From: Pyrinomonadaceae bacterium
GTDB taxonomy: Bacteria; Acidobacteriota; Blastocatellia; Pyrinomonadales; Pyrinomonadaceae
Length of the DNA stretch: 24,000 nt
Direction of reading: 5' to 3'
Assembly: GCA_036802885.1 (NCBI GenBank)
Contig: DAIRVI010000005.1
Location: 4,137 to 28,136 of the forward strand
Every line of letters starts with the position of its first letter. Within the stretch, counting starts at the first letter, position 1. A program made the position numbers and the translations under genes. Below the pieces are notes generated by a model. That model was not told where the DNA came from. It saw nothing but the letters and a program-made list of their open reading frames with translations, and searched no databases. This document shows, piece by piece, positions 4,984 through 21,066 of this stretch.

Positions 4984-6081
4984 ATGCAAAGCGAGAACGC
5001 GTTGGGACCCGATTCACAATACCTCGAAACCCCAGCCTCGAAATCGAGATCGAATAAGACAAATCTGCTGATCTGGGTTCACGCCATAACTTTTCTCCTG
5101 GGCCTCGGCCTTCTTATATATGTAATCTACAAGATCGGCTATCAGAGCCTGATAGAATCGGTCACACGAGTCGGATGGGGCATCGTTTTAATAATGGGCC
5201 TAAATCTCGTCAGGCATTTGCTGCGAGCATCGACGATGTATCTTGCCGTTGCCCCCGAACATCGAACTTTTAAATATCGAAGCGCGGTTGCCGCACGGTT
5301 CGGAGGCGAGGCAGTCAATTTCTTCAGCTTTGCGGGCCCGTTTCTGGGCGATGCGACCAAGGCCGTTTTGCTCAAGAAAAATCTCCCGCTGACACACGGC
5401 GCTTCGGCCGTAATAATCGATAACATCCTATATTACGTAACGGTTATTCTGGTCGTTTTGACCGGCGTTGCGATCCTGCTATTTAATTACGGCAGCAGCG
5501 GTTCGGCGATGAGCAATGTTCTGCTGGTCATCGTCGTGGCCGCTGTATTGATGTTTACTGGTTTGTCGCTTGCGATCCTTTATCGCGTCACCCCGCTTAC
5601 GCACGCGATCGATTTTTTTGCAAGGCGGAATATTGCGCCGAAATTCCTTTTGAAAAAGCGTCACAACATCCTCGATGTCGAGAATAATGTCTTTCAGTTT
5701 TACCACAACCGTAGGGCCGATTTCTTTATAGTGTTTGGGATCAGCCTAGGAGTTCATACCGTCAGCGTGACAGAGGTCTATTTGGCTCTGAAGTTTTTGG
5801 GCTATGACGCACTCGTCTCGACGGCTTTTATAATCGAGAGCCTTACAAAGGTCATAAATGCGACTTTCAGCTTTATTCCGGGGACGATCGGCGTGTATGA
5901 GGGCGGAAACGGTTTGATCCTACACACGCTTGGTTATACGACGGCGGTTGGCGTCGCGCTAGCATTGGTGCGCCGCGGAGCGATCCTTTTTTCGACGTTT
6001 ATAGGATTGGTGATCTTGCTTTGGCGAGGGGCTGAGCGTGGAGCAAAACACCTGGCAAAAAACCGCGATCAAGCCGAATAG
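4984..6081 (+). CDS. UPF0104 / lysyl-phosphatidylglycerol-synthase-TM-region-like (flippase-like) integral membrane protein
   Basis: The 365-aa protein has about 8 hydrophobic segments and the typical layout for this family. It has a polar N-terminus, then LLIWVHAITFLLGLGLLIYVIY, then a conserved basic loop (VRHLLRA). Confidence 0.65.
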   Translation: MQSENALGPDSQYLETPASKSRSNKTNLLIWVHAITFLLGLGLLIYVIYKIGYQSLIESVTRVGWGIVLIMGLNLVRHLLRASTMYLAVAPEHRTFKYRSAVAARFGGEAVNFFSFAGPFLGDATKAVLLKKNLPLTHGASAVIIDNILYYVTVILVVLTGVAILLFNYGSSGSAMSNVLLVIVVAAVLMFTGLSLAILYRVTPLTHAIDFFARRNIAPKFLLKKRHNILDVENNVFQFYHNRRADFFIVFGISLGVHTVSVTEVYLALKFLGYDALVSTAFIIESLTKVINATFSFIPGTIGVYEGGNGLILHTLGYTTAVGVALALVRRGAILFSTFIGLVILLWRGAERGAKHLAKNRDQAE

Positions 6082-6082
6082 T

Positions 6083-8575
6083 TCATGGTTTTGAGCCGCG
6101 CCCGTCCACGGCCGGAACGACGATCTCCTTAACCAAGCGGCCGGGAAACTGACGAAAACCAAGTTCCTTAAGTTCACCGACAGGCCGATTCTCGTTATCG
6201 ATTTTGCCCATTAAACGCAGAATCGTTGGCATAAAGCTGAGGCCGTCGTACGGCTGCTCGACCGCAAGCCCGCGCGGAATGCCGGTGTTTAGCCCGCCCG
6301 CGACCATAAAAGTTGAATTTGTCGAAACGCGAAAAAACGAGCCGTGGTTGCCGCCCGGATTAAAGCCGCGAACGTCGAAATTCCAATGGTCGTTGGCGAG
6401 GATCAGCAAATCCGCCTCTGTCAGTCGACGCTGACGCTCGCGAAACCGCCTTATGAGCGTCTCATCCTTCGAAATACTAGCTTCGTCATCAAATAACCGA
6501 TGGCGGTCAAGCTGTTCGTTCAAACCGATGATCGCGTTTGAGTATGTCGTCTTGTGCGTGGCATTTAGCCATTCGATCTCAGTGTGCCACTCGTTTAGCC
6601 AAGCCGAACGGAGCGATGGCGGAATGGCGAAATTGTTGTCTTCGAAATATTTCAACGGCAACCCGGCTGCAAATTCTCTCACCTGAAATGTAACCTTTAC
6701 ATTCGCATCCTGCCGCAAGCCCGAGATCGGCAGATAACGAAAGCTCTGACCTCCATCCTCGTCAATGCGAGAGAGTATGAGGGCCTGCTTGTCAGCACCG
6801 CCAAAGAGCCAGACCGGTTCCTCATTCGTCCGGATGTCCGATGGCAGCGATCCGTTCGGGATACGCACCGCGACAAAGTCGATTGGGCGGCTGCTGAGGT
6901 CCGCCTGCACATTATTGCGAACCCTTTGCTCGTGCAACAGGTCAAAATAGTTCACCCGCGCAAAGCTTTTTGCGAGGTCGAGATTCTTGTCCTGATCGAG
7001 CGTCAGTCCATTTCCCGACAGACCGACGACGTAATTCTGCAGCTGGTAAACTGAGTTGGGCTCGCCCATTGCGCCGGGCGCGATAAGATCTTCGACCCTG
7101 ATTTTTCGAGCATCTAGGGTCTCACGCTTTAGAGCAAGCAAGTTCCTCAACGTCTTTAGATACTCGCGGTAATCGGCTTCGGCCTGTACGGCAATATTAA
7201 CTTGCGCCGCAAGCCGCCGGTTTTTTTCGATCGCCCCTCGCATTGCAGGGTCGCGTTCGGACTTCATCGGCAGGGTTTTTATAATTTTTTGTTGAGGCTC
7301 GATCCAACGTTGTAATGCATCAAGCTCCGCGCCGAGTTGATCGACAGTTGTTCGCCAATCAGCCCTGTACGAATCGATGATCTTAAATACACTGTCCTTT
7401 GCTGCCGCTCTTAGTTCGGATGCGAGGCCGTCCTGCCGAAGCTGTTGTAACAGAATGTGCAGGATGTTTAGATCGCTGTTGCGAAGGTGAATCGACGAGC
7501 GTTCGTTCCCGTCAAAATCGACCAATGCGGTCGGATACGATTTGACCTGGCCTTTCAGATAAAACGACTCGTCCGATGCGGTCCTGATCAAGGGAACCAA
7601 AGGATAAATTCCCTTTATGGTGTAATCGAGCATTAGTCGCCGCTTCGTGATCGCGTGATGTCCGCCGCCTGCCGCGCTACCGAGAAGTTTTACTAGATTA
7701 AATCCCTGGCTGTAAACATTTTCCTCTGAGTTAAATCCGTGATCCGACACCAGAACCAGAGCAGTTTCGTCCGCCCGCGAAGACGCCGTTATCGCGACCC
7801 AGATCTTGCCGATCAGCCGATCGAGCTCTTTGAGCCCATTCAATCTCGATGCGGTGTCGTTGTTATGGTGCGAGACGTGGTCAAACGAAACGTCGTAATA
7901 ATCGTAGTAATCAATCTCAGGCCTTTTGATGAGTTTGCCGGTAATGTCGCGCTCGGCCTGTTTGGTCGTTATTTTGCGAAAGTCGAGGCCGATCGCCCAT
8001 TCATCAATAAAGTCCTTGGGGTTACCCGGATACAAATGCACAAATCCGCTTGCAAGTACGGCCCAATCATTTCCTCGTTGGTAAAGCTGTTGACTGGTAT
8101 ATCGTTTCTCAAATGGAAATGCGTCACACAGCAACGGAATCTTTAGCTGATCCATCACCTCGACCGCGGGCATATCGGCATTCTTTGCGAACGCATACTT
8201 TAGGTAGTACGGAAAAAAGTTTAGGTAATCGTAGGCGTGCAGGGTATAGCGGTCATATTCGACATTGCCCTTGATCTGAAGGTGCTGACCCGTGTCGAGC
8301 TGCCCCCACGACGGCCCCGAGAGGCTCATACCTCGCGTATAAAAATTGGTTACACGACTCCCGTTTTTGTAAAAGACCTCGTCGAACCACGGCAAGATCG
8401 ACTTTCCGGTCTCTGGGTCACGCACTTTTACAAAATGATCGACGTAATAACTGGGCAAACCATCGATCTTAACGATCACAACACGCTTTACGCTCTGACC
8501 TGTAACGAAAACGCTTCCGGCAGCGAGAAATAAGAATGCGAGGATGGCGCTTGAGACCCTTGTTCTAATGCTCAT
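6083..8575 (-). CDS. Alkaline-phosphatase superfamily / nucleotide pyrophosphatase-phosphodiesterase (NPP)-fold enzyme with a signal peptide and a very large internal insertion
   Basis: All NPP-type metal and nucleophile motifs occur in order: VVIVKIDGLP, SLSGPSWGQLDTG, SFDHVSHHN, LVLVSDHGF, NPGGNHGS. The last two lie about 460 aa apart. The N-terminus MSIRTRVSSAILAFLFLAAGSVFVTGQ looks like a signal peptide. I prefer ATG 8575 over TTG 8590. Confidence 0.7.
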   Translation of the reverse strand: MSIRTRVSSAILAFLFLAAGSVFVTGQSVKRVVIVKIDGLPSYYVDHFVKVRDPETGKSILPWFDEVFYKNGSRVTNFYTRGMSLSGPSWGQLDTGQHLQIKGNVEYDRYTLHAYDYLNFFPYYLKYAFAKNADMPAVEVMDQLKIPLLCDAFPFEKRYTSQQLYQRGNDWAVLASGFVHLYPGNPKDFIDEWAIGLDFRKITTKQAERDITGKLIKRPEIDYYDYYDVSFDHVSHHNNDTASRLNGLKELDRLIGKIWVAITASSRADETALVLVSDHGFNSEENVYSQGFNLVKLLGSAAGGGHHAITKRRLMLDYTIKGIYPLVPLIRTASDESFYLKGQVKSYPTALVDFDGNERSSIHLRNSDLNILHILLQQLRQDGLASELRAAAKDSVFKIIDSYRADWRTTVDQLGAELDALQRWIEPQQKIIKTLPMKSERDPAMRGAIEKNRRLAAQVNIAVQAEADYREYLKTLRNLLALKRETLDARKIRVEDLIAPGAMGEPNSVYQLQNYVVGLSGNGLTLDQDKNLDLAKSFARVNYFDLLHEQRVRNNVQADLSSRPIDFVAVRIPNGSLPSDIRTNEEPVWLFGGADKQALILSRIDEDGGQSFRYLPISGLRQDANVKVTFQVREFAAGLPLKYFEDNNFAIPPSLRSAWLNEWHTEIEWLNATHKTTYSNAIIGLNEQLDRHRLFDDEASISKDETLIRRFRERQRRLTEADLLILANDHWNFDVRGFNPGGNHGSFFRVSTNSTFMVAGGLNTGIPRGLAVEQPYDGLSFMPTILRLMGKIDNENRPVGELKELGFRQFPGRLVKEIVVPAVDGRGSKP

Positions 8576-8600
8576 TTCTATGTATTTCAATAAATAATGA

Positions 8601-10667
8601 TCAATTTGTGCCGATTCCGGCGATCACCTGAGCATCGCGGTATGAAATGCGCTGACCCTCTACGAGAGCGAGTTTGAGATAACGGGCACAAAGGTCGTGC
8701 CAGCGTTCACCGGGCGTTGAATTCTTGTAAATTGCAAGCAGCTCGTTCTTAGCCGACGAATTATTTACCTTGTAAAGAGCGCTCAAACAAAGCGAGCGCA
8801 TGTCGATATCAGTCGTGATCGCAAAGATCTTTGCTAGGGCGCGCGACGTCTTATCCTCAGCCGCCGCACCGTTCTCGGCAATGAATGAAAGCGAGCGACG
8901 CAGCTTAACAACGTCCGAATCGACCTCCGGATTTGCCGACGCATAAGCGACCTCACGCAAATATCGCTCGTGATAATCCAACTGCCGGCGAATATCCAAC
9001 TGCGCCAGCAATTTGGGCGTTTCTTTTTCTCGATGCGTTATTAACCCGAAGGAAAAAGCGTGTGCGATCGACAGTAACGCGCGATCAACGCCTCCGTGCG
9101 TTAACCTGACCATCTCCTCTCGTCGGTCCTGTGTTATCTTTTTTGGCAAACCGTCGGGCCGTTTCGCATAGGCCAAAAGGTTTGCATATTGGGTGTGCGC
9201 AAGTCTAGCCTCGGCCTCGAGGCCATTCTGTAACGGATTGAGCGTCGCGGATTCGATTCGTTTGGCGATCTCCGTGCGAAATTCGGGATCGAGCGACGCA
9301 TCCAGCGACAGCAAAAGCTTTAGCTGAGAATACGAACGCAGGCGCGACGCTTGATTGAGATCGATTCCGCGGCGACCTGTTATAAACGAGTAAATGAGTC
9401 GGCCGACAAAAAACGGAAGGCCGCCAAAACGAGTAAGCGGCAGGACGTTGCCGATGATCTCATTCAACAGACGCCTCGACATCTCGCGTATCTTTGGATT
9501 GCCGTTATCACGAAAATCGACCAATATTACCGGTATCTTTGGATTATCGAGACCGTAAAGGGCAAGCGGGATCATCAGCCTGGATTTGGCGTTCGGGGTT
9601 TCTGGCTCGACCTGGCGATTGTCGGCGTCAAACCAACGCTGCTGTGAATAGCCACTCCATTTTGCGAGTCTGCTGTCGGTCCACGGGTTTTTGATATTCA
9701 GAAACCGCGCATCGAACTTTTTACCTTTGTTCGCCTCTATATCCGCGGCATCTACCCAGACTAACGCATGCTGTGCGGCACCGTCCGGCATTTCCAACGG
9801 TTCAAAATACAGACCCTGAGCCTCTGAATACTGGCGAAGTAGTTCCCAGTTGTGCCCGCGAAAATCACGGGTTTTTGTAAGCTCCTTATCATAAACCCGG
9901 CCAAGGTTTTCGCTCTGTACGTGCCAGCCAAAGGGTTTGTCATTAAGCGACAGTCGAGCCTGAATATCCTTTAACTCAGAATCACTTAGGACCTTTTCGC
10001 CCTCGATCTCCTGATATAGCGACAAAACCGTCATCGCCCGCGCAACGGCGGATTGCTGATACTCAAAAGCATTCTGTCGGTAGTGCAAGGTTGACGTTTT
10101 CATTCCAAGGCCAACTTCGCTAAGGACGATATTTTTAAAAAGCAGCCAAAATACTTTGTTCCAAACCACCTTATCGGACGACTGGACATCAATGACAGGC
10201 GGCGGAGCTTCGGTTCCGACGTTTTTCTTATTGGAGGTTCTGGAATAAAGAATGGGCGCGAATGCCGACAGTTTTTGCACCAGCGACGCTTTTGTATAGT
10301 TATGCATCCAGACGTACCGGAGCCTGTCGTTTTCCGGCAGATCATCGCCGAGCGTATCGCGAAGCACGCTGATCATCGGGATCTCAGTTGCGGGACCAAA
10401 AGTCGATTCATTCGAGCGCGATTGTTTAGCAAAAATCGTGATCAGTTCCCCGCCGCCTGCAACCGGAACCTTTTCGACCCGAAAACCTGTCTCGGTTTCG
10501 GGCTTTTCATTTTTGGCTAGATCGTTCGGGGGTGCGTTGAGTGCGAACGACTCGGCACTCGATTGAGCGGGTACCCGAATAGTGGAAAACACGATGCAAT
10601 AGACGATTAAAAAGACCGCGCAACTGGGGATTAGTCTTCGATCAGATGTGGTTTTGATCAATTTCAT
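8601..10667 (-). CDS. Hypothetical secreted or membrane-anchored protein (688 aa), no domain recognised
   Basis: This is a long uninterrupted ORF with an N-terminal hydrophobic segment (LIPSCAVFLIVYCIVFSTIRVPAQS). It ends 25 nt upstream of the AP-fold gene on the same strand, which suggests an operon. The start is ATG 10667, with TTG 10673 as an alternative. Confidence 0.6.
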   Translation of the reverse strand: MKLIKTTSDRRLIPSCAVFLIVYCIVFSTIRVPAQSSAESFALNAPPNDLAKNEKPETETGFRVEKVPVAGGGELITIFAKQSRSNESTFGPATEIPMISVLRDTLGDDLPENDRLRYVWMHNYTKASLVQKLSAFAPILYSRTSNKKNVGTEAPPPVIDVQSSDKVVWNKVFWLLFKNIVLSEVGLGMKTSTLHYRQNAFEYQQSAVARAMTVLSLYQEIEGEKVLSDSELKDIQARLSLNDKPFGWHVQSENLGRVYDKELTKTRDFRGHNWELLRQYSEAQGLYFEPLEMPDGAAQHALVWVDAADIEANKGKKFDARFLNIKNPWTDSRLAKWSGYSQQRWFDADNRQVEPETPNAKSRLMIPLALYGLDNPKIPVILVDFRDNGNPKIREMSRRLLNEIIGNVLPLTRFGGLPFFVGRLIYSFITGRRGIDLNQASRLRSYSQLKLLLSLDASLDPEFRTEIAKRIESATLNPLQNGLEAEARLAHTQYANLLAYAKRPDGLPKKITQDRREEMVRLTHGGVDRALLSIAHAFSFGLITHREKETPKLLAQLDIRRQLDYHERYLREVAYASANPEVDSDVVKLRRSLSFIAENGAAAEDKTSRALAKIFAITTDIDMRSLCLSALYKVNNSSAKNELLAIYKNSTPGERWHDLCARYLKLALVEGQRISYRDAQVIAGIGTN

Positions 10668-10799
10668 CTCCAAAATTATCGAGCATTTACATCCTTACGT
10701 TTGAGGCCATAGCCTCTTTGTCTACATCAGTTAGGAGAAATATTTTAGCGCAATCAGTTTATCAGATGCCGGAAAATCAGAAAAAGTTCGGCGAGCGCG

Positions 10800-10955
10800 C
10801 TATTTTGTGAGTTTTGAGCGGAAAACCGTCACGATTTCGACCATTGCAACGCCAATACCCGTCAATAACAGAAGGTGCACGAACCCGCCCTTGCCGAGAA
10901 AAACCAGCAAAAGCCAGATTCCTAATAAAACCCCGGTGATCAATCGTAAAACCAC
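10800..10955 (-). CDS. Small lmo0937-family-like (DUF5670-like) membrane protein, about 51 aa
   Basis: LITGVLLGIWLLLVFLGKGGFVHLLLLTGIGVAMVEI resembles the two-helix lmo0937 family (GGxIHLLL motif). The in-frame start candidate is GTG 10955. A canonical ATG-CTG-TGG (MLW) at 10960 is one base out of frame. The 91-aa ORF-track version starts at a TTG and adds a non-membrane extension. Confidence 0.4.
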   Translation of the reverse strand: MVLRLITGVLLGIWLLLVFLGKGGFVHLLLLTGIGVAMVEIVTVFRSKLTK

Positions 10956-11026
10956 AGCATTTTCGAAACAGTGACAATATTTATCTCCGCCAATGATATC
11001 ACGCCGGGAAATCGGATTGGCACATT

Positions 11027-11054
11027 TTGACAGAGCAAACGTCAATCGGATAAT
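11027..11054 (+). promoter_or_regulatory. Candidate sigma70-type promoter for the GT-C glycosyltransferase gene
   Basis: TTGACA (11027-11032), a 16-nt spacer, then GATAAT (11049-11054). It lies 50-85 nt upstream of the candidate starts at 11105 and 11138. This is a sequence match only. Confidence 0.3.
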
Positions 11055-11137
11055 CTTCAGATTCAGTTTTCGCAAGCCTGAAACGCCCCGATTAGACTGA
11101 TATTTTGCGGCTCAAATCCTTTGGGAGAATAAACAAA

Positions 11138-12844
11138 TTGTCAGCCCAGATCCGTCCGCCAATCACCGCCGGCATTTACCCGGAAAAGTTTTCCGACAAC
11201 CTGTTCTTCTCAAAAAATCGAAAGGTTGCCGCTATTATTTTGGCTATCTTTATGGCCATCGGCTTTGCCTTGCGCGTAAACGACCTAGGTGTCGAGAGCT
11301 TTGGCGAGGACGAGCTGAACAAGCTGCAAACCGTCGAGGAATATCGAACTAACGGCCTGTCGGGCAAGAACGGCGAGCATCCGTTTTTGATGAAAGGCCT
11401 GCAAACCGCTAGCGTCGTAGCGGCGGAGAGTCTGAACAAAGTCGTATCGCCGCAATATTTCACAATTTCGGATGAGGCGGCTCTGCGGTTTCCCGTAGCC
11501 CTATTTGGGACATTTACATCGCTACTTATCTTCTTACTTATTTCTGAGTTATTCGGACGCAGTATAGGGCTTGTGTCAGCGGTTCTCTGGGCGGTTGAGC
11601 CGATGGCGATCGGGTTTGACCGGATCGCGAAGGAGGACAGCCTTGTCCTTTTCTTTTTTCTACTCACGAACCTTTTTTGGATACGCAGCCAAACCGCTGC
11701 TGAACGCGGTAGCGACAGATGGACCTGGTTTGCGTGGGCGGCCGCGGCGAGTTTTGCTGCGCTAATGGCGTCGAAATATTATCCGTTTTTGCTGGGTATA
11801 ACCGCTGCATATTACAACATTTTTAAATTTGTGCCGGGAAACAAGTGGAATCTGGAAGGCGCCCGGTGGCTCAAGTTCTTCGTCATAATGGGCTTGGCCT
11901 TTCTGATCCTAAACCCAACGATCGTCTTGCCCGATACTTGGCGGGAAATGCTCAAATTCTCAAGCGAAAATCGCATCGGCCATGACAGTTATGAATTTAT
12001 GGGCGAGCTATTCCCGAACAAGATGACCGCATGGCTCGCAGGCGTGCCTTGGATCTTCTATTACATCTTTATTGCGGTAAAAACGTCGCTGCCGACCCTT
12101 TTCCTGTTCATTATCGGGTTGCCCCTGATGTTTCGACGCAACCTCGGTGACGGACGTTTTTTTATTTTCTTTTGGGCATTCATTTGGTTTATGCCCTTCA
12201 CGGTTTTGGGAGGGAAATTTACACGCTATTTCACGTTTGTGGAGCCTCTGTTGCTGATCACGGCGGCGGTCGCATTTTGCTTCGTGTTAAATTGGGTGTC
12301 CGCAAAGTTCTTTCAACAATCGTTGCTCAAGCCAATTCTGCAATCGCTCTCATTCGCGGCACTGGTTGCGGCTCCGCTTTTGAATTCACTCTCGGTCGCT
12401 CCGCATTTTAGGATGTTTACCAATGAGATCGGCGGCATGTCAGCCGCAGGCACCTACTTTCCGCATGACGAATTTTACGACGCCGGTTCGCGTGACATTG
12501 TGGCGGAGATCTCGGCTCGAGCCGGACACGGGGCAGCTATCGCGTGCGAAACTCCGATGCTGTTCGAGTATTACGCTCGGAAAGTTGGTCGCGATGACCT
12601 TACATTTTTGTCTCTGTCAGACAAGTCAAAAGTCAAGGATCTAAAGGTTGGTGATTTTGTTGTGATTACTCGAGGCCGCCGATATTTCAGTAATTCGGCG
12701 TACGAAAACTACTTGGGTAAATCGGCGACCGCAAATGTCGTGATCAAGATCGGCAAGGTCGATGCAGCGTGGATCTACCAGTTAGACCAATATACCGCCG
12801 CAGACATTCAGGCAATGGCAAAATCGGATATCAATCGTAATTGA
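11138..12844 (+). CDS. GT-C fold glycosyltransferase, family 39 / ArnT-PMT_2-like membrane protein
   Basis: It is a polytopic membrane protein. The first TM (VAAIILAIFMAIGFAL) is followed by a loop with FGEDE, which matches the acidic first-loop motif of ArnT/PMT-type enzymes. There are many TM segments and a soluble C-terminal domain of about 150 aa. The start is uncertain. TTG 11138 has GGGAGA 11 nt upstream, and the ORF opens at TTG 11105. Confidence 0.6.
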   Translation: MSAQIRPPITAGIYPEKFSDNLFFSKNRKVAAIILAIFMAIGFALRVNDLGVESFGEDELNKLQTVEEYRTNGLSGKNGEHPFLMKGLQTASVVAAESLNKVVSPQYFTISDEAALRFPVALFGTFTSLLIFLLISELFGRSIGLVSAVLWAVEPMAIGFDRIAKEDSLVLFFFLLTNLFWIRSQTAAERGSDRWTWFAWAAAASFAALMASKYYPFLLGITAAYYNIFKFVPGNKWNLEGARWLKFFVIMGLAFLILNPTIVLPDTWREMLKFSSENRIGHDSYEFMGELFPNKMTAWLAGVPWIFYYIFIAVKTSLPTLFLFIIGLPLMFRRNLGDGRFFIFFWAFIWFMPFTVLGGKFTRYFTFVEPLLLITAAVAFCFVLNWVSAKFFQQSLLKPILQSLSFAALVAAPLLNSLSVAPHFRMFTNEIGGMSAAGTYFPHDEFYDAGSRDIVAEISARAGHGAAIACETPMLFEYYARKVGRDDLTFLSLSDKSKVKDLKVGDFVVITRGRRYFSNSAYENYLGKSATANVVIKIGKVDAAWIYQLDQYTAADIQAMAKSDINRN

Positions 12845-13934
12845 GAGCTTCGACGGCGTCGAGACGAGCCGCTCGCAACCCTGGGTACAAGGCTCCGAGC
12901 GCGCCGCTAACAAGTCCGACGACTACGATCGTTAGGACGATTTGTGGCTCGATGGAAACCGTAAGTGTTGACCATTTGCCAAGTACCGCTCTCAATGCGT
13001 ACGTCGCCGCGACGCCAAAAATTATACCGCCGACACTGATCAGCATCGCCTCTTGGACAATCGTCCAGGCAATATTCGTGTTGGACATTCCGAGCGATTT
13101 CAATACTCCGATCTGACGGGTGCGTTCCGTAACCGTCGTGTACATCGTAAGCAAAATTATTAGGCCGCTGATCGCCGCGGCAACGCCGATCACCACATCA
13201 AGAAAGACGTTAAGGGCCGGAATCCCCTGCATGTAAAGCTCTTCGAGCTCACTCGTGAGGATGATCTGATTATCAGGAAATTTCGCGTGTAGATTGTCGC
13301 CCACCGCGGCGGGGGTAGAACCCTCCTTGACCTTTACCAAAAAGGCCGACGCTTTGCCTTCGGCCGCGAGTTGGGCCTGCATCGTAGTGAGCGGAATCTT
13401 GATACGCGCCCCGGCGCTCGGCTCGTAGGTTCCGACGATCTCAAAATCGCGGTCGTAGATTTTAAATTTATCGCCGATCTTGAGCTTTCGACGCTCGAGC
13501 CAGGCACTGTCCGACATCATCTCGTCGCGGCCATCGACAAACTTCCGTCCCTGCACTATCTGCAGACCGGCCATCGCCGAATATTCGTCATAACTCACGC
13601 CGTCAATCAGACGGCTGCCCGTTAATCCGTCGGTCGCGGCGACGCTATTCTGCGCAACCGGTATTACAGCGGCCACGCCCTCGACCTTTTCGATCTCGGT
13701 TGATTGTGAAACGGGAAGCCGAAGGGAATCCGACCCGCTCAGCCCGAAACTACCCAACGCTCGAAACATTATTTCCGCTCCGACATTTTTATCGCGGGCA
13801 GCGCGCTCGCGCATCGTGCCATTTGCGAGTCCAACCGTAAAAACGATCAGCAAAATGCCGATGCCGATGCCAAAAATACTGACAACGGTCCGTGCCGGGC
13901 GGTGGAGCATGTTTGAAAATACAAGGCTGTTCAC
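12831..13934 (-). CDS. FtsX/MacB-type ABC transporter permease (single module, 4 TM), no adjacent ATPase
   Basis: The N-terminus FSNMLHRPARTVVSIFGIGIGILLIV matches the typical MacB/FtsX start. A periplasmic domain of about 220 aa follows, then the FtsX region (TERTRQIGVLKSLGMSN...). The start is GTG 13934. The 3' end overlaps the convergent GT39-like gene by 14 nt. Confidence 0.8.
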   Translation of the reverse strand: MNSLVFSNMLHRPARTVVSIFGIGIGILLIVFTVGLANGTMRERAARDKNVGAEIMFRALGSFGLSGSDSLRLPVSQSTEIEKVEGVAAVIPVAQNSVAATDGLTGSRLIDGVSYDEYSAMAGLQIVQGRKFVDGRDEMMSDSAWLERRKLKIGDKFKIYDRDFEIVGTYEPSAGARIKIPLTTMQAQLAAEGKASAFLVKVKEGSTPAAVGDNLHAKFPDNQIILTSELEELYMQGIPALNVFLDVVIGVAAAISGLIILLTMYTTVTERTRQIGVLKSLGMSNTNIAWTIVQEAMLISVGGIIFGVAATYALRAVLGKWSTLTVSIEPQIVLTIVVVGLVSGALGALYPGLRAARLDAVEALNYD

Positions 13935-13962
13935 TTAATACAAAATTCGACGTGCGCAAAGT

Positions 13963-14874
13963 CTAGTTTCTACCAACGGCTTTTTTGAACGCTTCTTTCG
14001 CCAATAATTTGGGCGAATTCATCGTAGCCATGTAAAACGGAACGACGCAGCCGCATTTATCACAATCGGCATTGTCGCCCATCATACATTTGCCTTTCGG
14101 ATTACCATCTGCCCCGAGCGTAAATGCCTTTTCCCTGAAAAGGCATTTATCTGTTACGCTCCGTGAATTATGCGATCTCATCAGGTCAAGCGTCGAATCC
14201 AGCATATTAATAAAGCCGGGATATTTACGTTTGAGGGCGTGAAGATCATCGATGATACGGTCGCGGGTTTTCCAATCGAGCCACAACGATTCGTCGAGCT
14301 TATTCACCGGTGTAAAGAAATCGAAAATAATTCCGCCGCGGGCCAATGGCCCCCATTCGACGATCAGGTCTTCGATACATTCCACGGTCAGACTGGTTAT
14401 AACACAGGAGATCTGGATCTTCAGATCAGGATGACGAAGTACGTTCTCTTTGATCTTTTGATAAATGCCGGGGGCACGCATTTTGGCAAACGCCTCTTCG
14501 GTGCCGTCGATCGAGATGACCCAAGTGCAATCGGTCCAGTCGGGCAACTCCATTGTGCCATTCGTAACTATAGTATTGTGCTTGAAATATTTACGGCCAA
14601 CATCGATCAGCTCTTTGCGCACCATCGGTTCGCCGCCTACCCAGGTGCAAAGCAACATCGGGTCTCCGGCCGCCTTCATCGCCTCAAACTTTTCAACCCA
14701 TTTATCGACAGTCAGCTCAACCTCTTTGTGCTCCTCCGCAAAGAAATAGCAATGCTCACAACGAAGGTTGCACCGTTTTGTGACGTCGATCGACCCAACG
14801 GCGTTCGCAGGCATTCCGAACACCAACATCCGCGTCAGCGCACCTAAATTCTTAACGGTTTTGGCGATCTGCAT
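13963..14874 (-). CDS. Radical SAM protein (303 aa) with a C-terminal four-Cys cluster (possible auxiliary Fe-S site)
   Basis: It has the CNLRCEHC (CX3CX2C) motif at residues about 35-42, a GGEP motif (WVGGEPMV), and C-terminal CMMGDNADCDKCGC. Its ATG overlaps the upstream gene's stop in TAATG (14872-14876). Confidence 0.85.
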   Translation of the reverse strand: MQIAKTVKNLGALTRMLVFGMPANAVGSIDVTKRCNLRCEHCYFFAEEHKEVELTVDKWVEKFEAMKAAGDPMLLCTWVGGEPMVRKELIDVGRKYFKHNTIVTNGTMELPDWTDCTWVISIDGTEEAFAKMRAPGIYQKIKENVLRHPDLKIQISCVITSLTVECIEDLIVEWGPLARGGIIFDFFTPVNKLDESLWLDWKTRDRIIDDLHALKRKYPGFINMLDSTLDLMRSHNSRSVTDKCLFREKAFTLGADGNPKGKCMMGDNADCDKCGCVVPFYMATMNSPKLLAKEAFKKAVGRN

Positions 14875-16850
14875 TACGCAACCCCGACGGGCTCGGCTTC
14901 CGTTTCCTCAACTTCCGCGACCAAATACGGCGAGGTTGCGACCGAATCAAGGTCTTCCGAAACGATCTTTGCGATCACCGGCAAACTCAAGCTGCGGGTT
15001 TTCGCAATTCCCGGCACTTCGTGACCCTTGGCATATACAGCATGGCGGCCGTGCTCTTTATACCACTCGGAAAGCGACGCGGTCTTGTGCATTTCCTCGA
15101 TGATCTGACGCCAGCCGACGCCGGTGTTGTAGGCGCAAAAACTGACTTCGCCTTCTTGCGTGCCATACGGGATCACGCACATCTCGGTGCGGCGGAAATC
15201 GTAGTTGAATAGGTCCTGAAACCACATTCCCTCAACGCAGAGGACACGCCAATTGTCGTCGCTGTTCGTATCCTGGCCCGCACTTGTCATGCGATCATTG
15301 CGGTCGGAATTTGCGTTCGTCGATGACGGTTTGAATAAATTCAGGATCTGCGAGATCGGAAAGCCTTCAGGCGCCCTTCCGGCGTCGAAGTTTCGCATGA
15401 TCGCCATACCGAGCTGCGCCATCGTGAGTTTCTTGCCACGAGCCGTGTCGGTGATGACGGTGACGTCCTTCATAAACTGCTCATAGTTAAAGAAATCGAA
15501 CAGCGACGTCATCTGATTCGTGTTCTTATTGACCACGATCAGCGTAAAAATACCGCAGTTCGGGTGGCAGTTGCACGAAGACCAGCCCCACGGAGCGTCC
15601 GCGCCTTGCAGCATATCCATCACGCTAGTGAACGCCGAATACGAACTGAGCGGAAACCAATCGCGAAGCGGCTCAAGCACACCGTCAAGCTGCGCTTTAA
15701 GATCATGCGTCATTCCTGACAGCGTGTATCGCTGTGCGATGCGGTCCTTGTCCGACACGTCTTCGTCGCGGCCGGTAAACGAAACAGGCTGGAAAGCGAT
15801 GGTCTGCACCTTATCGATATTCTCAGCAGCAAATTTAACGATGCTGCCTATCCCGGAATTGTTCCATGAATTAACAATGGTCGTGACGAGCGTCACCTTG
15901 ATGCCAACCGAAGCGAGATTCTCGATGGCTTTGAGCTTTACGTCAAACAGATTGCCGACGCCGCGATGTTTGTTGTCTTCGTCGTTGGTTCCGTCGAACT
16001 GTAAATAAACGCCGTGCTGCCCTGCGGCCTTTGCGGCTTTGCAAAATTCGATGTCCTCGGCGTATCGAATGCCGTTCGTCGCGGCAAGGATGCGGTAAAA
16101 ACCGATCTTCTTCGCGTACGCAACCGATTCGAGAAAGTGCGGTGCGATGGTCGGTTCGCCGCCGGAGAAAAGGATGATGATCTGCCGACGCGGCTTGAAC
16201 GAAACAGCTCTGTCGAGGATCTCTTTCGTGTCCTCGAACGTCGGTTCGTGCACATAACCGACCTGATTCGCATCCATAAAGCACGGATTGCACATCATGT
16301 TGCAGCGGTTTGTCAGATCGACGGTGAGCACCGCCCCGCGGCCAAATTTAATATCCGAAGTGCCATGATGATGAACGTGTTTGTCTTCGGCAGCCTTAAA
16401 ATCGCGGCCGTAAAACAACGATTCGATGCGTTCGAGAAACTTCGGATCGGTCGCCATCACATCTGTAAACTCGCCGTGCGTCGGGCAGATCTTTTTCATC
16501 ACAACCTGGCCGTTTTCCTCGACGATCTGAGCCTTGATCTCGCCGGGATGCGAATTCATCAAGATCTCAAGCGGGATCGTTTTATTGATCACGCCCTCGC
16601 GAACGCTCTTGACGCACGCCGGGCAAAGCGAATCGGTCTCACGCGGAAAACCAAGTGGCGGCGCCGTGCGCTCGTACGATTTGAGCAGCGGTTCGGCAGC
16701 CCATTTCGGCGTAATCGCCTCGCTCTCAGGCAAAGCCTTGTTCACAGCCTGAAAAGTCTTCCAGCCGATATCCGCCGCCGCCGAAGCCATCTTCGACCCT
16801 TTCCGTCCTTTCCCGCCTTTTTCCCCACGTCTAAAATTGTCGCTAAACAT
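14874..16850 (-). CDS. Large radical SAM enzyme of the class D / MJ0619 (GDGT-MAS, Tes tetraether-lipid-synthase) type
   Basis: The N-terminal zinc-ribbon/rubredoxin-like pattern SLCPAC...(about 45 aa)...ICPTHGEF is followed by DLTNRCNMMCNPCF (radical SAM CX3CX2C) and FSGGEPT. Further Cys clusters are present (SSCNCHPNC, MCVIPYG, SFCAYN). I prefer ATG 16850, with GGAG 9 nt upstream. Alternatives are GTG 16874 and ATG 16790. Confidence 0.8.
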   Translation of the reverse strand: MFSDNFRRGEKGGKGRKGSKMASAAADIGWKTFQAVNKALPESEAITPKWAAEPLLKSYERTAPPLGFPRETDSLCPACVKSVREGVINKTIPLEILMNSHPGEIKAQIVEENGQVVMKKICPTHGEFTDVMATDPKFLERIESLFYGRDFKAAEDKHVHHHGTSDIKFGRGAVLTVDLTNRCNMMCNPCFMDANQVGYVHEPTFEDTKEILDRAVSFKPRRQIIILFSGGEPTIAPHFLESVAYAKKIGFYRILAATNGIRYAEDIEFCKAAKAAGQHGVYLQFDGTNDEDNKHRGVGNLFDVKLKAIENLASVGIKVTLVTTIVNSWNNSGIGSIVKFAAENIDKVQTIAFQPVSFTGRDEDVSDKDRIAQRYTLSGMTHDLKAQLDGVLEPLRDWFPLSSYSAFTSVMDMLQGADAPWGWSSCNCHPNCGIFTLIVVNKNTNQMTSLFDFFNYEQFMKDVTVITDTARGKKLTMAQLGMAIMRNFDAGRAPEGFPISQILNLFKPSSTNANSDRNDRMTSAGQDTNSDDNWRVLCVEGMWFQDLFNYDFRRTEMCVIPYGTQEGEVSFCAYNTGVGWRQIIEEMHKTASLSEWYKEHGRHAVYAKGHEVPGIAKTRSLSLPVIAKIVSEDLDSVATSPYLVAEVEETEAEPVGVA

Positions 16851-16953
16851 ATAGTTACTCCGTCGAGTAGACACACTACTCCCGCCCGAATTCTAGCAAA
16901 TTTGGTAAGGGATTACTATTCAGCTTGCCACAAGTGGCTATTACAAACGTAGC

Positions 16954-17809: not shown

Positions 17810-18160
17810 CTATGAACTGCCGAAACGCACCTTTGTCTCGGTCACGGTAACGAACTGATCTGGCAGTTTGTCAGCGTGGGCCGTGAGAAGTTTTTGTAGA
17901 ACCTCGATCTTGTTTGCGGCTCTTTCGTCAGTAAGGCGAAAGAAGATTATTCCATGGTGCTCACGGCGTTCGCGATAAATGAGTTCGCCGAAATCTTTGT
18001 CGTTGGTAATTAAGATCCAATTCTCAATGACGGCTTTGGCGAGAATGTCGTCGTCCTGTTCGCCCCGTGACTGATCGAATACAGAATAGACCTCGTAACC
18101 TTCGGCGGCCAGCCAGGCGGCGACTTTTGGGCCGGTGCATTCGTCAACCAAAAACCGCAT
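17810..18160 (-). CDS. DUF5615 (COG4634) PIN-like protein, putative toxin
   Basis: MRFLVDECTGPKVAAWLAAEGYEVYSV...ILITNDKDFGELI is a typical DUF5615 pattern. It starts immediately after the stop of the DUF433 gene (TAGATG). Confidence 0.8.
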   Translation of the reverse strand: MRFLVDECTGPKVAAWLAAEGYEVYSVFDQSRGEQDDDILAKAVIENWILITNDKDFGELIYRERREHHGIIFFRLTDERAANKIEVLQKLLTAHADKLPDQFVTVTETKVRFGSS

Positions 18161-18409
18161 CTAAGCTGTCTCCATAACGAGCGGCATAAATTCGGTACGG
18201 CTTAGCGATTCTCCGGCGAATAAAAGACAGGCGTGAATGTCTTCGGGCTGGAGGCCTTTGTATTCATCCAATATTTCAGCGGTCGTCGCACCGTGAGCGA
18301 GAAGGTTTAGTATGAATTCGACGGTTAGGCGCGTCCCTTTGATGACCGGCTTGCCCGTCATGACCTTTGGATTGAGTGTTATTCGCTCTAGCAATAGCTG
18401 ATCGTTCAT
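18161..18409 (-). CDS. DUF433 (COG2442) protein, putative antitoxin
   Basis: ITLNPKVMTGKPVIKGTRLTVEFILNLLAHGATTAEILDEYKGLQPEDIHACLLFA is a canonical DUF433 core. It is adjacent to and upstream of the PIN-like gene. Confidence 0.8.
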   Translation of the reverse strand: MNDQLLLERITLNPKVMTGKPVIKGTRLTVEFILNLLAHGATTAEILDEYKGLQPEDIHACLLFAGESLSRTEFMPLVMETA

Positions 18410-20350: not shown

Positions 20351-20400
20351 AAATTGACACTTTATTGTACGCTAAAGCGGTACCGAAAGATGCAAATTCT

Positions 20401-21066
20401 ATGATCGAATTAAGGAATGTAACCAAAATCGTCCAATCGGGCACTGAGGACTTGACGATACTCGATGATGTTTCTTTTGAGATACCGGACGGGCAATTCG
20501 TCGCCGTTACCGGTGCCTCGGGCAGCGGCAAATCTACGCTCCTCGGCCTAATTGCGGGTCTTGACGCACCGACGACGGGCAGCATCCTGATCGACGACGA
20601 CGAGATCACAAAGATGGGCGAGGACGGTCTTGCGAGGATCCGCAGCGAGAAGATCGGCTTTGTGTTTCAGTCGTTTCATCTTATCCCAAGCCTGACGGCC
20701 CACGAGAACGTCGTTATACCGATGGAGATACTCGGCCTAGCGGATGTGCGCAGCCGTGCCGACCAACTGCTCGAACAAGTCGATCTCACGAATCGTGGAC
20801 ATCACTATCCGGCTGAGCTTTCGGGCGGCGAACAGCAGCGCGTCGCGATCGCACGGGCATTCGCCAATTCACCGAAAATACTGCTCGCGGACGAACCGAC
20901 CGGAAATCTAGATACAAAAAATGGTCAGCATATTTTTGACCTGATGAAGAACCTGCATAAGCAGAACGACGTGACATTGATCCTGGTAACGCACGACGCG
21001 GCGCTCGCTGCGCAGGCTCAGCGGCGAATCGTCTTAACGGACGGGCGTGTTTCGAGCGACGAGTGA
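20401..21066 (+). CDS. ybbA: ABC transporter ATP-binding protein, YbbA/LolD-MacB-type
   Basis: It has Walker A (GASGSGKST), the signature LSGGEQQRV, and Walker B (ILLADEPTG). I prefer ATG 20401 (MIELRNV...). The ORF-track start at 20365 is a TTG that adds 12 aa. Confidence 0.85.

What the first reader, a model, noticed from the sequence alone, without database searches (positions are those of the whole stretch)
12831..16850. Bacterial Tes/GDGT-MAS-like radical SAM enzyme in a three-gene operon with a second radical SAM protein and an orphan FtsX permease
- **Enzyme signature:** the ~658-aa protein has the N-terminal SLCPxC...CPxHG ribbon, CNxxCxxCF and GGEP motifs, plus several extra Cys clusters. 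As I remember it, this is the signature of class D radical SAM enzymes typified by MJ0619. MJ0619 was shown to be the archaeal tetraether lipid synthase (GDGT-MAS of Lloyd et al. 2022; Tes of Zeng et al. 2022), which joins two lipid tails by C-C coupling.
- **Why it matters in bacteria:** homologues have been proposed as the route to membrane-spanning iso-diabolic-acid or branched-GDGT lipids, but their partners are essentially uncharacterised.
- **What the sequence shows:** the gene is translationally coupled (TAATG) to a 303-aa radical SAM protein, and a MacB/FtsX permease lacking an ATPase follows 28 nt later.
- **Inference:** this gene set could be a make-modify-move module for membrane-spanning lipids. 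I do not know of that system being described.
Basis: partly seen in the sequence, partly recalled or inferred. Interest (0 to 1): 0.8.

Follow-up and report, generated by a model that had tools for sequence, protein, structure and literature searches.

The report
Bacterial Tes-like lipid synthase with partners
A soil acidobacterium carries a bacterial relative of the archaeal enzyme that welds two lipid tails into a membrane-spanning lipid, followed by a small uncharacterised radical SAM enzyme and a transporter subunit, but this three-gene set is confined to its closest relatives and is not a conserved system.

Summary
Three minus-strand genes sit as described. They are a 658-aa Tes/GDGT-MAS-family radical SAM protein, a 303-aa radical SAM protein overlapping it by TAATG, and a 367-aa MacB/FtsX permease 28 nt further on.

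- **Large protein:** it is a full-length GDGT-MAS homologue (PDB 7TOL E 9e-66; model TM 0.85). It scores below NCBI's Tes cut-off (313 vs 450 bits). Like all 73 bacterial relatives checked, it lacks the Cys ligands of the N-terminal auxiliary [4Fe-4S] cluster.
- **Host and prior work:** the host is a Pyrinomonadaceae bacterium (Acidobacteriota). Tes homologues in Acidobacteria are already published candidates for membrane-spanning lipid synthesis, and none has been tested.
- **Triad:** among 80 genome loci with a Tes-like gene, only one other has all three genes.
- **Small radical SAM gene:** it is an optional gene, patchily present directly downstream of Tes in two synteny backgrounds within Pyrinomonadaceae. 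Its distant relatives sit in lipid or glycolipid clusters.
- **FtsX:** it recurs next to Tes in one sublineage only.

Best reading: a probable tail-coupling lipid synthase with a lineage-restricted accessory radical SAM enzyme. The "make-modify-move module" is not supported.

The parts
14874..16850 (-). Tes/GDGT-MAS-family radical SAM gene (658 aa from ATG 16850; alternative GTG start at 16874 gives 666 aa)
   Evidence: NCBIfam NF045702 Tes E 2.6e-93, 313 bits, profile 2-483/486. Pfam Zn_ribbon_HMPTM + Radical_SAM. PDB 7TOL E 9.4e-66. AF2 model pLDDT 79.6; Foldseek 7TOM E 1.6e-37, TM 0.85.
16476..16625 (-). Rubredoxin-like CX2C...CX2H site (C84, C87, C130, H133 in 666-aa numbering), with a ~22-residue insert relative to archaeal enzymes
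   Evidence: Alignment with archaeal-type representatives. Invariant in 73 bacterial homologues. Motif as defined in PMC9433317.
16362..16379 (-). HVHHHG segment at the position where archaeal GDGT-MAS has the CPxxCGxCxxH ligands of the N-terminal auxiliary [4Fe-4S] cluster; it contains no Cys
   Evidence: 69 of 72 bacterial ORFs have no Cys in the 45 residues before the radical SAM motif, and none has CX3CX2C there. H168 and H170 are conserved.
16281..16304 (-). Radical SAM CX3CX2C motif of the Tes-like protein (C191, C195, C198)
   Evidence: Read directly from the sequence; invariant in homologues.
15135..15575 (-). C-terminal auxiliary-cluster region: C434, C436, H437, C440, M550 (equivalent to Met439), C566, Y570 (equivalent to Tyr459), C580
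   Evidence: Alignment to 7TOL. Conservation in homologues. Roles of Met439 and Tyr459 from PMC9433317.
14872..14876 (-). TAATG stop/start overlap between the Tes-like gene and rSAM2
   Evidence: The overlap is not conserved: the gap is 113 nt in L006 and 30 nt in L087, and one or two other genes intervene in L005, L019, L024 and L086.
13963..14874 (-). rSAM2: 303-aa twitch/partial-SPASM-type radical SAM protein (radical SAM motif C35/C39/C42; conserved C76, C244, C263, C271, C274, C276)
   Evidence: Pfam Radical_SAM only. No NCBIfam equivalog. Conserved Cys from alignment A1. AF2 pLDDT 87.5; Foldseek top hits SkfB, anSME, CteB, SuiB, BlsE, MoaA.
12831..13934 (-). MacB/LolCE-type permease (MacB_PCD + FtsX), no ATPase adjacent; its 3' end overlaps the convergent PMT_2 gene by 14 nt
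   Evidence: Pfam. Only weak NCBIfam hits to ADOP, MacB, LolC/E and DevC. 2193 homologues at E<=1e-10. Contexts.
4984..12844 (.). Variable envelope cassette between FtsX and PGI: LPG_synthase_TM flippase-like (4984-6081 +), phosphodiesterase/sulfatase-like 835 aa (6083-8590 -), 690-aa unknown (8601-10673 -), 91-aa unknown, PMT_2 GT-C glycosyltransferase (11105-12844 +)
   Evidence: Pfam. The block travels with FtsX in L007, L089 and L090. It is absent in L008, L010, L033 and L091. This is context, not shown to belong to the Tes function.

Best explanation
**Tes-like gene.** The 658-aa gene encodes a bacterial member of the Tes/GDGT-MAS radical SAM family.
- Inferred mechanism, by homology to MJ0619: 5'-deoxyadenosyl radicals abstract H from the terminal methyl of a lipid tail. 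The substrate radical is parked on the C-terminal [4Fe-4S] cluster. A second activation then joins two tails by a C(sp3)-C(sp3) bond.
- In this Pyrinomonadaceae host the likely substrates are iso-branched acyl or alkyl chains, giving iso-diabolic-acid-type membrane-spanning lipids.
- The bacterial clade works without the N-terminal auxiliary cluster.

**rSAM2.** This is a lineage-restricted, dispensable accessory radical SAM enzyme with one twitch-like auxiliary cluster. It most likely tailors the same lipid; the reaction is unknown. My best guess is a further C-C link or ring, or an H-abstraction-driven modification of the chain.

**FtsX.** It is one of the many acidobacterial MacB-type permeases. 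It lies at the junction with a variable envelope cassette. Its link to Tes is at most sublineage-specific.

**Shown versus inferred.** Family membership, motif content and gene-neighbourhood distribution are shown. All chemistry and lipid products are inferred.
For: **Family**
- Tes is the best NCBIfam hit, full length.
- 7TOL E 9e-66.
- The model superposes on 7TOM with TM 0.85, while the next hits match only the radical SAM core at E~1e-7.
- The rubredoxin-like site, the radical SAM motif, the C-terminal Cys, and the Met439 and Tyr459 equivalents are invariant in 73 bacterial homologues.

**Host**
- Close homologues are named Pyrinomonadaceae, Blastocatellia or Acidobacteriota.
- SD4 Acidobacteria make iso-diabolic acid and lack Mss (PMC13159169).

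**rSAM2 linkage**
- 7 of 8 contexts of rSAM2 homologues at >=70% identity lie within 1.3 kb downstream of Tes on the same strand.
- This holds in two different synteny backgrounds, with variable intervening genes.
- In the Tes tree, rSAM2 presence is patchy, a clean presence/absence difference between the same flanking genes.

**Lipid context of distant rSAM2 homologues**
- HpnN/BstA-like RND transporter, HpnM/MlaC-like carrier, TolC-like protein and PIP-synthase-like enzyme.
- Deacetylase, polyprenyl-P GT2, SPASM radical SAM protein and PIM-acyltransferase-like enzyme.

**Precedent**
- tes-gms clusters in Acidobacteria (PMC11214058).
Against: - No bacterial Tes homologue has been shown to make any lipid; a review from August 2026 still lists them as bioinformatic only.
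- Tes homologues were found in only 3 of 14 iso-diabolic-acid-producing Acidobacteria under stringent criteria, so another route may exist.
- The protein is below NCBI's Tes equivalog cut-off (313 vs 450 bits) and lacks one of the four metal sites of GDGT-MAS.
- The host is a metagenome lineage whose lipids are unknown.
- Most Tes-like genes (more than 60 of 80 loci) have no rSAM2 nearby.
- One rSAM2 homologue (L088) has no Tes within 6 kb.
- The nearest structural neighbours of rSAM2 are peptide maturases.
Confidence: 0.55

Rival explanations
1. One reading: Tes-like, rSAM2 and FtsX form a dedicated, conserved make-modify-move operon in which the permease moves or flips the membrane-spanning lipid.
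For: - The three genes are co-oriented with a -1 nt and a 28 nt junction.
- The triad recurs in L006.
- Judging by matching contig lengths, it probably also recurs on several metagenome contigs of the same lineage.
- Tes-FtsX adjacency survives with and without the PMT_2 cassette (L030, L031, L091 versus L007, L089).
- MacB-type permeases include lipid and lipoprotein movers (LolCDE, DevCA; established knowledge).
Against: - Only 1 of 80 genome loci repeats the triad.
- FtsX occurs next to Tes only in the sublineage with Tes identity >=85%. Even there it is absent from L008-L010 and L033.
- L090 keeps FtsX with the PMT_2 block but has no Tes.
- No ATPase partner is present.
- ATPase-less FtsX genes occur elsewhere in these genomes: the protein hits the ADOP family, and L089 has two more such genes.
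- No promoter or terminator signal above chance is available to define an operon.
Confidence: 0.1
2. rSAM2 has nothing to do with lipids. It is a peptide (RiPP), cofactor or protein maturase that merely sits next to Tes through inherited synteny.
For: - The best structural matches are SkfB, CteB, SuiB and anSME.
- The best sequence-family hits are ScmE, AhbC, StsB and PapB, all far below their cut-offs.
- Some sources name homologues AhbD or AslB.
- One homologue, L088, has no Tes nearby.
Against: - The radical SAM motif starts at residue 35, so there is no room for the N-terminal peptide-recognition domain that SkfB, CteB and SuiB carry.
- I saw no conserved small precursor gene next to it in the contexts examined.
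- The position just after Tes is kept across two synteny backgrounds.
- Distant homologues sit in lipid-transport or glycolipid clusters, not RiPP clusters.
- The sulfatase-like neighbour in the window is absent from the other rSAM2 loci, which argues against an anSME-like role.
Confidence: 0.2
3. The Tes-like protein is a diverged paralogue with different chemistry or a different hydrophobic substrate, not a membrane-spanning-lipid synthase.
For: - It is below the Tes equivalog threshold.
- It has a second substantial hit to the TrsS family at 204 bits.
- It has lost the N-terminal auxiliary cluster and gained a ~75-aa N-terminal extension and an insert in the rubredoxin-like domain.
- Tes homologues were detected in only 3 of 14 iso-diabolic-acid producers.
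- GDGT-MAS homologues exist in bacteria not known to make biphytanyl chains (PMC9433317).
Against: - The whole GDGT-MAS fold is retained, including the C-terminal cluster domain where the substrate radical is held (TM 0.85).
- The Met439 and Tyr459 equivalents are invariant.
- The role of the lost cluster is unknown even in the archaeal enzyme.
- Genomic neighbours in the sister clade are lipid A and envelope genes (lpxA, lpxD, lpxB, lptD-like).
Confidence: 0.25

Closest known systems
Archaeal tetraether synthase Tes / GDGT-MAS (MJ0619; PDB 7TOL, 7TOM; NCBIfam NF045702)
   Same: - Full-length homology and fold.
- Rubredoxin-like CX2C...CX2H site.
- Radical SAM CX3CX2C and GGEP motifs.
- C-terminal auxiliary-cluster domain with the Met439 and Tyr459 equivalents.
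   Different: - 29% identity over the structural alignment.
- Below the equivalog cut-off (313 vs 450 bits).
- No Cys ligands for the N-terminal [4Fe-4S] cluster; HVHHHG sits there instead.
- About 75 extra N-terminal residues and a ~22-residue insert in the rubredoxin-like domain.
- Two extra invariant Cys in the C-terminal region (C434, C436).
- Bacterial host, so fatty-acid-type rather than isoprenoid substrates are expected.
Published bacterial Tes homologues (Koribacter versatilis, Solibacter usitatus, Edaphobacter aggregans; Zeng 2022 PMC8941075; Halamka 2022 PMC10087280)
   Same: The same idea: acidobacterial Tes homologues proposed to couple iso-C15 chains into brGDGT or iso-diabolic-acid lipids. 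All remain experimentally untested.
   Different: This copy comes from Pyrinomonadaceae (subdivision 4), a group not singled out in those papers. I did not align it against those particular proteins.
tes-gms (hbs) gene clusters of Acidobacteria and Planctomycetes (Gms = GMGT synthase; Garcia 2024 PMC11214058; Li 2024 PMC11186832)
   Same: A Tes-family gene is clustered with a second radical SAM enzyme of the SPASM/twitch, AhbD-like group that carries auxiliary cluster(s).
   Different: - Gms proteins are over 400 aa, with an N-terminal six-helix (COG4001) domain and a full SPASM domain holding two auxiliary clusters.
- rSAM2 is 303 aa. Its radical SAM motif starts at residue 35, it has five C-terminal Cys, and Pfam finds no SPASM domain.
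Bacterial membrane-spanning lipid synthase Mss (Thermotoga, Thermoanaerobacter; Sahonero-Canavesi 2022 PMC13159169)
   Same: Radical SAM tail-to-tail coupling of fatty acyl chains, the reaction the Tes-like enzyme is proposed to perform.
   Different: Mss is a different radical SAM family. It was reported absent from Acidobacteria and restricted to anaerobes. It was not compared here by sequence.
MacB / LolCDE / DevCA type VII ABC permeases and acidobacterial ADOP permeases (TIGR03434)
   Same: MacB_PCD periplasmic domain plus the FtsX C-terminal domain.
   Different: It is a single unit rather than duplicated, and no ATPase gene is adjacent. Scores against every named equivalog are far below cut-off, so its substrate cannot be assigned.

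Membership tests
Tes / GDGT-MAS radical SAM family | Full-length sequence and fold similarity to GDGT-MAS | tested here: met
   7TOL E 9.4e-66 over residues 113-608. Foldseek 7TOM E 1.6e-37, TM 0.85 normalised to the target.
Tes / GDGT-MAS radical SAM family | Score at or above NCBIfam NF045702 equivalog cut-off (450 bits) | tested here: not met
   313.3 bits. Public records name the homologues only 'radical SAM protein'.
Tes / GDGT-MAS radical SAM family | Rubredoxin-like CX2C...CX2H iron site | tested here: met
   C84, C87, C130 and H133 are invariant in 73 bacterial homologues. The motif is defined in PMC9433317.
Tes / GDGT-MAS radical SAM family | Radical SAM CX3CX2C cluster and GGEP SAM-binding motif | tested here: met
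   C191, C195, C198; G238-P241.
Tes / GDGT-MAS radical SAM family | N-terminal auxiliary [4Fe-4S] cluster ligated by C73, C77, C80 and a His | tested here: not met
   There is no Cys in the 45 residues before the radical SAM motif. The motif is absent in 72 of 72 bacterial ORFs and present in archaeal-type representatives.
Tes / GDGT-MAS radical SAM family | C-terminal auxiliary cluster domain with the labile Met and conserved Tyr | tested here: met
   C440, C566, C580, M550 and Y570 align with the archaeal residues and are invariant. Which residues actually ligate the cluster is inferred from alignment only.
Tes / GDGT-MAS radical SAM family | Catalyses tail-to-tail C-C coupling of membrane lipids | not testable with these tools
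   This needs expression or knock-out with lipid LC-MS. No bacterial homologue has been tested.
Gms / Hbs (GMGT synthase), for rSAM2 | Over 400 aa with an N-terminal helical (COG4001) domain before the radical SAM core | tested here: not met
   rSAM2 is 303 aa and its radical SAM motif starts at residue 35. The family is described.
Gms / Hbs (GMGT synthase), for rSAM2 | Full SPASM domain with two auxiliary [4Fe-4S] clusters | tested here: inconclusive
   Only five conserved C-terminal Cys (C244, C263, C271, C274, C276) plus C76. Pfam SPASM is not detected. The fold is twitch/SPASM-like.
Gms / Hbs (GMGT synthase), for rSAM2 | Direct sequence homology to characterised Gms | not tested
   No Gms sequence could be obtained. 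The supplements hold only PDB-format models.
SPASM/twitch radical SAM enzymes, for rSAM2 | Radical SAM core followed by a C-terminal Cys-rich auxiliary-cluster domain | tested here: met
   Foldseek hits: SkfB E 4e-12, anSME, CteB, SuiB, BlsE, MoaA. CX12GX5C...CX2CXC pattern.
MacB/LolCE-type ABC transporter, for the FtsX gene | MacB_PCD plus FtsX permease domains | tested here: met
   Pfam E 1.4e-18 and 4.3e-17.
MacB/LolCE-type ABC transporter, for the FtsX gene | Cognate ATPase encoded with the permease | tested here: not met
   No ABC_tran gene is adjacent in the window or in L007, L089, L090 or L091.
Conserved Tes-rSAM-FtsX three-gene module | Triad conserved across Acidobacteriota genomes | tested here: not met
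   Distribution of the partner genes next to a Tes-like gene:
- Full triad: window and L006 only.
- Tes + FtsX only: L007, L030, L031, L089, L091.
- Tes + rSAM2 only: L005, L019, L024, L086, L087.
- Neither partner: more than 60 loci.

The most novel reading that the evidence does not exclude
rSAM2 founds an undescribed family of small twitch-type radical SAM lipid-tailoring enzymes. In this reading it acts on the product of the bacterial Tes-like synthase, for example by adding a further C-C bridge or ring as in brGMGT or cyclised brGDGT-type lipids. Its patchy presence would then explain strain-level differences in acidobacterial membrane-spanning lipid structures used as palaeoclimate proxies. 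The distant homologues in HpnN/MlaC-type and glycolipid clusters would do related chemistry on other envelope lipids.
Probability: 0.22. Interest if true: 0.7.

Novelty: new variant of a known kind. Interest (0 to 1): 0.42.

Why it matters
How Acidobacteria make iso-diabolic-acid and brGDGT lipids is a long-standing open question. These lipids are the basis of widely used temperature and pH proxies.

This locus does not open a new kind of system, because Tes homologues are already the published candidates. It does sharpen the experiment in three ways:
- It gives a compact Tes-like plus rSAM2 pair to co-express.
- Natural rSAM2+ and rSAM2- relatives are available for lipid comparison.
- The whole bacterial clade lacks one of the four metal sites of the archaeal enzyme. 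That bears on what the site is for.

Tried and rejected
- **HpnH (adenosylhopane synthase) identity for rSAM2:** suggested by HpnN/HpnM-like neighbours of distant homologues. No HpnH model appears among the listed NCBIfam hits of rSAM2 or P0238, and Pfam finds no domain beyond Radical_SAM in rSAM2. Rejected.
- **anSME-like maturase for the neighbouring phosphodiesterase/sulfatase-like protein:** that neighbour is absent from the other rSAM2 loci. Rejected.
- **RiPP maturase:** rSAM2 has no N-terminal recognition domain, and I saw no conserved precursor gene. Kept only as a low-confidence rival.
- **rSAM2 compensating for the lost N-terminal cluster of Tes:** all bacterial Tes-like proteins lack that cluster, while most have no rSAM2. 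Rejected.
- **Operon signals:** promoter-like and terminator-like matches were at chance level. Uninformative.
- **Searches that failed:**
  - The afdb50 fold library was not available.
  - Supplementary table S21 of PMC13159169 is not held.
  - Gms and Mss reference sequences could not be obtained, so rSAM2 versus Gms/Mss homology is untested.
- **Class D radical SAM methylase label for MJ0619:** this is the older annotation (JGI still names homologues 'dihydro-6-hydroxymethylpterin dimethyltransferase'). Lloyd et al. could not corroborate it.

Full report
**1. The observation**

- The large ORF runs 14874..16850, giving 658 aa from the ATG. Gene callers and homologues use this start, and an upstream GTG at 16874 would give 666 aa.
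- Its stop overlaps the next start as TAATG (14876-14872).
- The 303-aa ORF is 13963..14874.
- After 28 nt comes a 367-aa ORF, 12831..13934, from a GTG start.
- The quoted motifs are all present: SLCPAC...CPTHG, CNMMCNPCF and GGEP.
- No ATPase gene is adjacent. The nearest one (20365..21066) is paired with its own 842-aa duplicated FtsX permease.

**2. The large protein**

Sequence and fold place it in the Tes/GDGT-MAS family.
- Pfam finds the MJ0619-type N-terminal zinc ribbon plus Radical_SAM.
- The best NCBIfam hit is tetraether lipid synthase Tes, over the whole profile (2-483 of 486; E 2.6e-93). At 313 bits it is under the curated 450-bit cut-off. The next family, TrsS, scores 204 bits.
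- The only strong match among solved structures is GDGT-MAS 7TOL (E 9.4e-66).
- An AlphaFold model (pLDDT 79.6) matches 7TOM at E 1.6e-37 with TM 0.85. All other hits cover only the radical SAM core at about 1e-7.

I compared the metal sites defined by Lloyd et al. (PMC9433317) with alignments.
- The rubredoxin-like CX2C...CX2H site is invariant in 73 bacterial homologues.
- The radical SAM triad is invariant as well.
- So are the C-terminal cluster region and the equivalents of Met439 and Tyr459.
- The CX3CX2C+His ligands of the N-terminal auxiliary [4Fe-4S] cluster are missing in every one of them. HVHHHG sits there in the window protein.
- Archaeal-type representatives (38% identity or less) keep CPxxCGxCxxH.

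So this is a true family member but a distinct bacterial subtype. It probably carries two [4Fe-4S] clusters rather than three.

**3. Host and prior knowledge**

Close homologues come from Pyrinomonadaceae, Blastocatellia and Acidobacteriota MAGs.

Bacterial Tes homologues, especially acidobacterial ones, have been proposed as brGDGT or iso-diabolic-acid synthases since 2022 (PMC8941075, PMC10087280). Three cautions apply:
- Mss is absent from Acidobacteria.
- Tes homologues were detected in only 3 of 14 iso-diabolic-acid producers.
- A review from August 2026 still treats bacterial Tes homologues as bioinformatic only.

**4. The triad**

A scan of one genome per species found more than 595 relatives, and I examined the best 80 loci. 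tblastn of the window's proteins against them, plus ORF clustering, gave the following:
- The full triad occurs only in L006 (Tes 96% identical).
- More than 60 loci have neither partner within 10 kb.
- The commonest neighbours of Tes-like genes are lpxD/lpxA (23 loci), lpxB (17), an LptD-like gene (13) and a small secreted protein (11).

Adding contexts retrieved from the partners' side shows two synteny backgrounds.
- **Clade A (Tes identity >=84%).** The order is PALP...Tes-[variable]-PGI. The variable part differs by locus:
  - nothing in L008, L010 and L033;
  - FtsX alone in L030, L031 and L091;
  - FtsX plus a PMT_2 / 690-aa / phosphodiesterase / flippase-like block in L007 and L089;
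  - rSAM2 plus FtsX plus that block in L006 and the window.
  - L090 keeps FtsX and the block but has no Tes.
- **Clade B (Tes identity 78-81%).** The order is lptD-lpxB-lpxD-lpxA...Tes-small secreted gene-[rSAM2]-HisKA fragment. rSAM2 is present in L005, L019, L024 and L087. It is cleanly absent in L013, L014 and others.

A neighbour-joining tree of the Tes-like proteins shows rSAM2 and FtsX scattered patchily within the Pyrinomonadaceae clade. Neither occurs outside it.

**5. rSAM2**

rSAM2 has only a Radical_SAM Pfam hit and no NCBIfam equivalog.
- Conserved Cys are C35, C39 and C42 (the radical SAM motif), plus C76, C244, C263, C271, C274 and C276.
- Its model (pLDDT 87.5) resembles the twitch/SPASM enzymes SkfB, anSME, CteB, SuiB, BlsE and MoaA.
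- Seven of eight contexts of homologues at >=70% identity lie just downstream of Tes. Spacing and intervening genes vary, so the TAATG coupling itself is not conserved.
- Homologues at about 48% identity are not next to Tes. They sit in lipid-related clusters instead:
  - one cluster type has an HpnN/BstA-like RND transporter, a flippase-like protein, a PIP-synthase-like enzyme, a TolC-like protein and an HpnM/MlaC-like carrier;
  - another has a deacetylase, a polyprenyl-phosphate GT2, an extended AhbD-like SPASM radical SAM protein and a PIM-acyltransferase-like enzyme.

This supports a lipid-related role. [quoted passage not shown] It is therefore not a Gms orthologue by architecture.

**6. 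FtsX**

The protein has MacB_PCD and FtsX domains, with only weak hits to ADOP, MacB, LolC/E and DevC. It has many close orthologues in this lineage. Its adjacency to Tes is restricted to clade A. It also travels with the PMT_2 cassette without Tes. ATPase-less FtsX permeases occur elsewhere in these genomes: L089 has two more. The evidence for a functional tie to Tes is therefore weak.

**7. Verdict**

The enzyme identification is right and already anticipated in the literature. The three-gene "make-modify-move" module is not a conserved system. Three things are new and useful:
- the recurrent but optional Tes-rSAM2 pairing in Pyrinomonadaceae;
- the lipid-cluster contexts of the wider rSAM2 family;

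All chemistry remains inferred.

Noticed in passing
L042, L049, L051, L057, L083 (e.g. L051:6239-7726): A ~495-aa B12-binding radical SAM protein (Pfam B12-binding + Radical_SAM) lies next to or near Tes-like genes in Gemmatimonadales, Latescibacterota and other Acidobacteriota MAGs. It is a candidate chain methylase or cyclase analogous to the archaeal Grs and Gmm enzymes.
   Followed up: partly
L092:9001-13817 and L093: A 49%-identical rSAM2 homologue heads a cluster with four other genes. They are an XrtA-type polysaccharide deacetylase, a polyprenyl-phosphate GT2, a 458-aa AhbD-like SPASM radical SAM protein with a ~110-aa N-terminal extension (an architecture reminiscent of Gms/Hbs), and a PIM-acyltransferase-like protein.
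   Followed up: partly
L004:2597-13908 (also the contexts of P0227 and P0229): rSAM2 homologues at ~48% identity sit among lipid-related genes. These are an HpnN/BstA-like RND transporter, a flippase-like protein, a phosphatidylinositol-phosphate-synthase-like enzyme, an inositol-dehydrogenase-like oxidoreductase, a TolC-like OMP and an HpnM/MlaC-like carrier. Together they look like an undescribed lipid make-and-traffic cluster.
   Followed up: partly
window 4984-12844: A block lies between FtsX and PGI: LPG_synthase_TM flippase-like, an 835-aa phosphodiesterase/sulfatase-like protein, a 690-aa protein with no family hit, a 91-aa ORF and a PMT_2 GT-C glycosyltransferase. It is conserved in L007, L089 and L090. 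It is absent in L008, L010, L033 and L091, so it behaves as a variable envelope cassette.
   Followed up: partly
L090:5350-8080: Here the FtsX gene and the PMT_2 block occur without any Tes-like gene. An IS200-type Y1_Tnp transposase gene lies just upstream, suggesting a rearrangement at this junction.
   Followed up: no
window 17810-18409: A likely toxin-antitoxin pair (DUF433 plus PIN-like DUF5615) lies two genes upstream of the Tes-like gene. It is also present in L091.
   Followed up: no
L005, L013-L026, L087 (clade B loci): In the sister Pyrinomonadaceae clade the Tes-like gene is flanked by lipid A and outer-membrane genes (lpxA, lpxD, lpxB and an LptD-like 826-aa protein). A ~230-aa secreted protein with no family hit lies immediately downstream.
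   Followed up: partly
window 16362-16379 and homologues: The segment that replaces the N-terminal auxiliary-cluster ligands is His-rich (HVHHHG; H168 and H170 conserved in 97-100% of 73 bacterial homologues). Whether it binds a metal is unknown.
   Followed up: partly
L068:8805-9902: A different 365-aa radical SAM protein (Radical_SAM + Fer4_12) lies immediately upstream of the Tes-like gene in a Blastocatellia MAG.
   Followed up: no
L006:13065-14168: The FtsX orthologue in the only other triad locus was split into two ORFs (149 and 183 aa) by my ORF caller, although tblastn aligns it at 82% across the full length. This could be a frameshift or a pseudogene.
   Followed up: no
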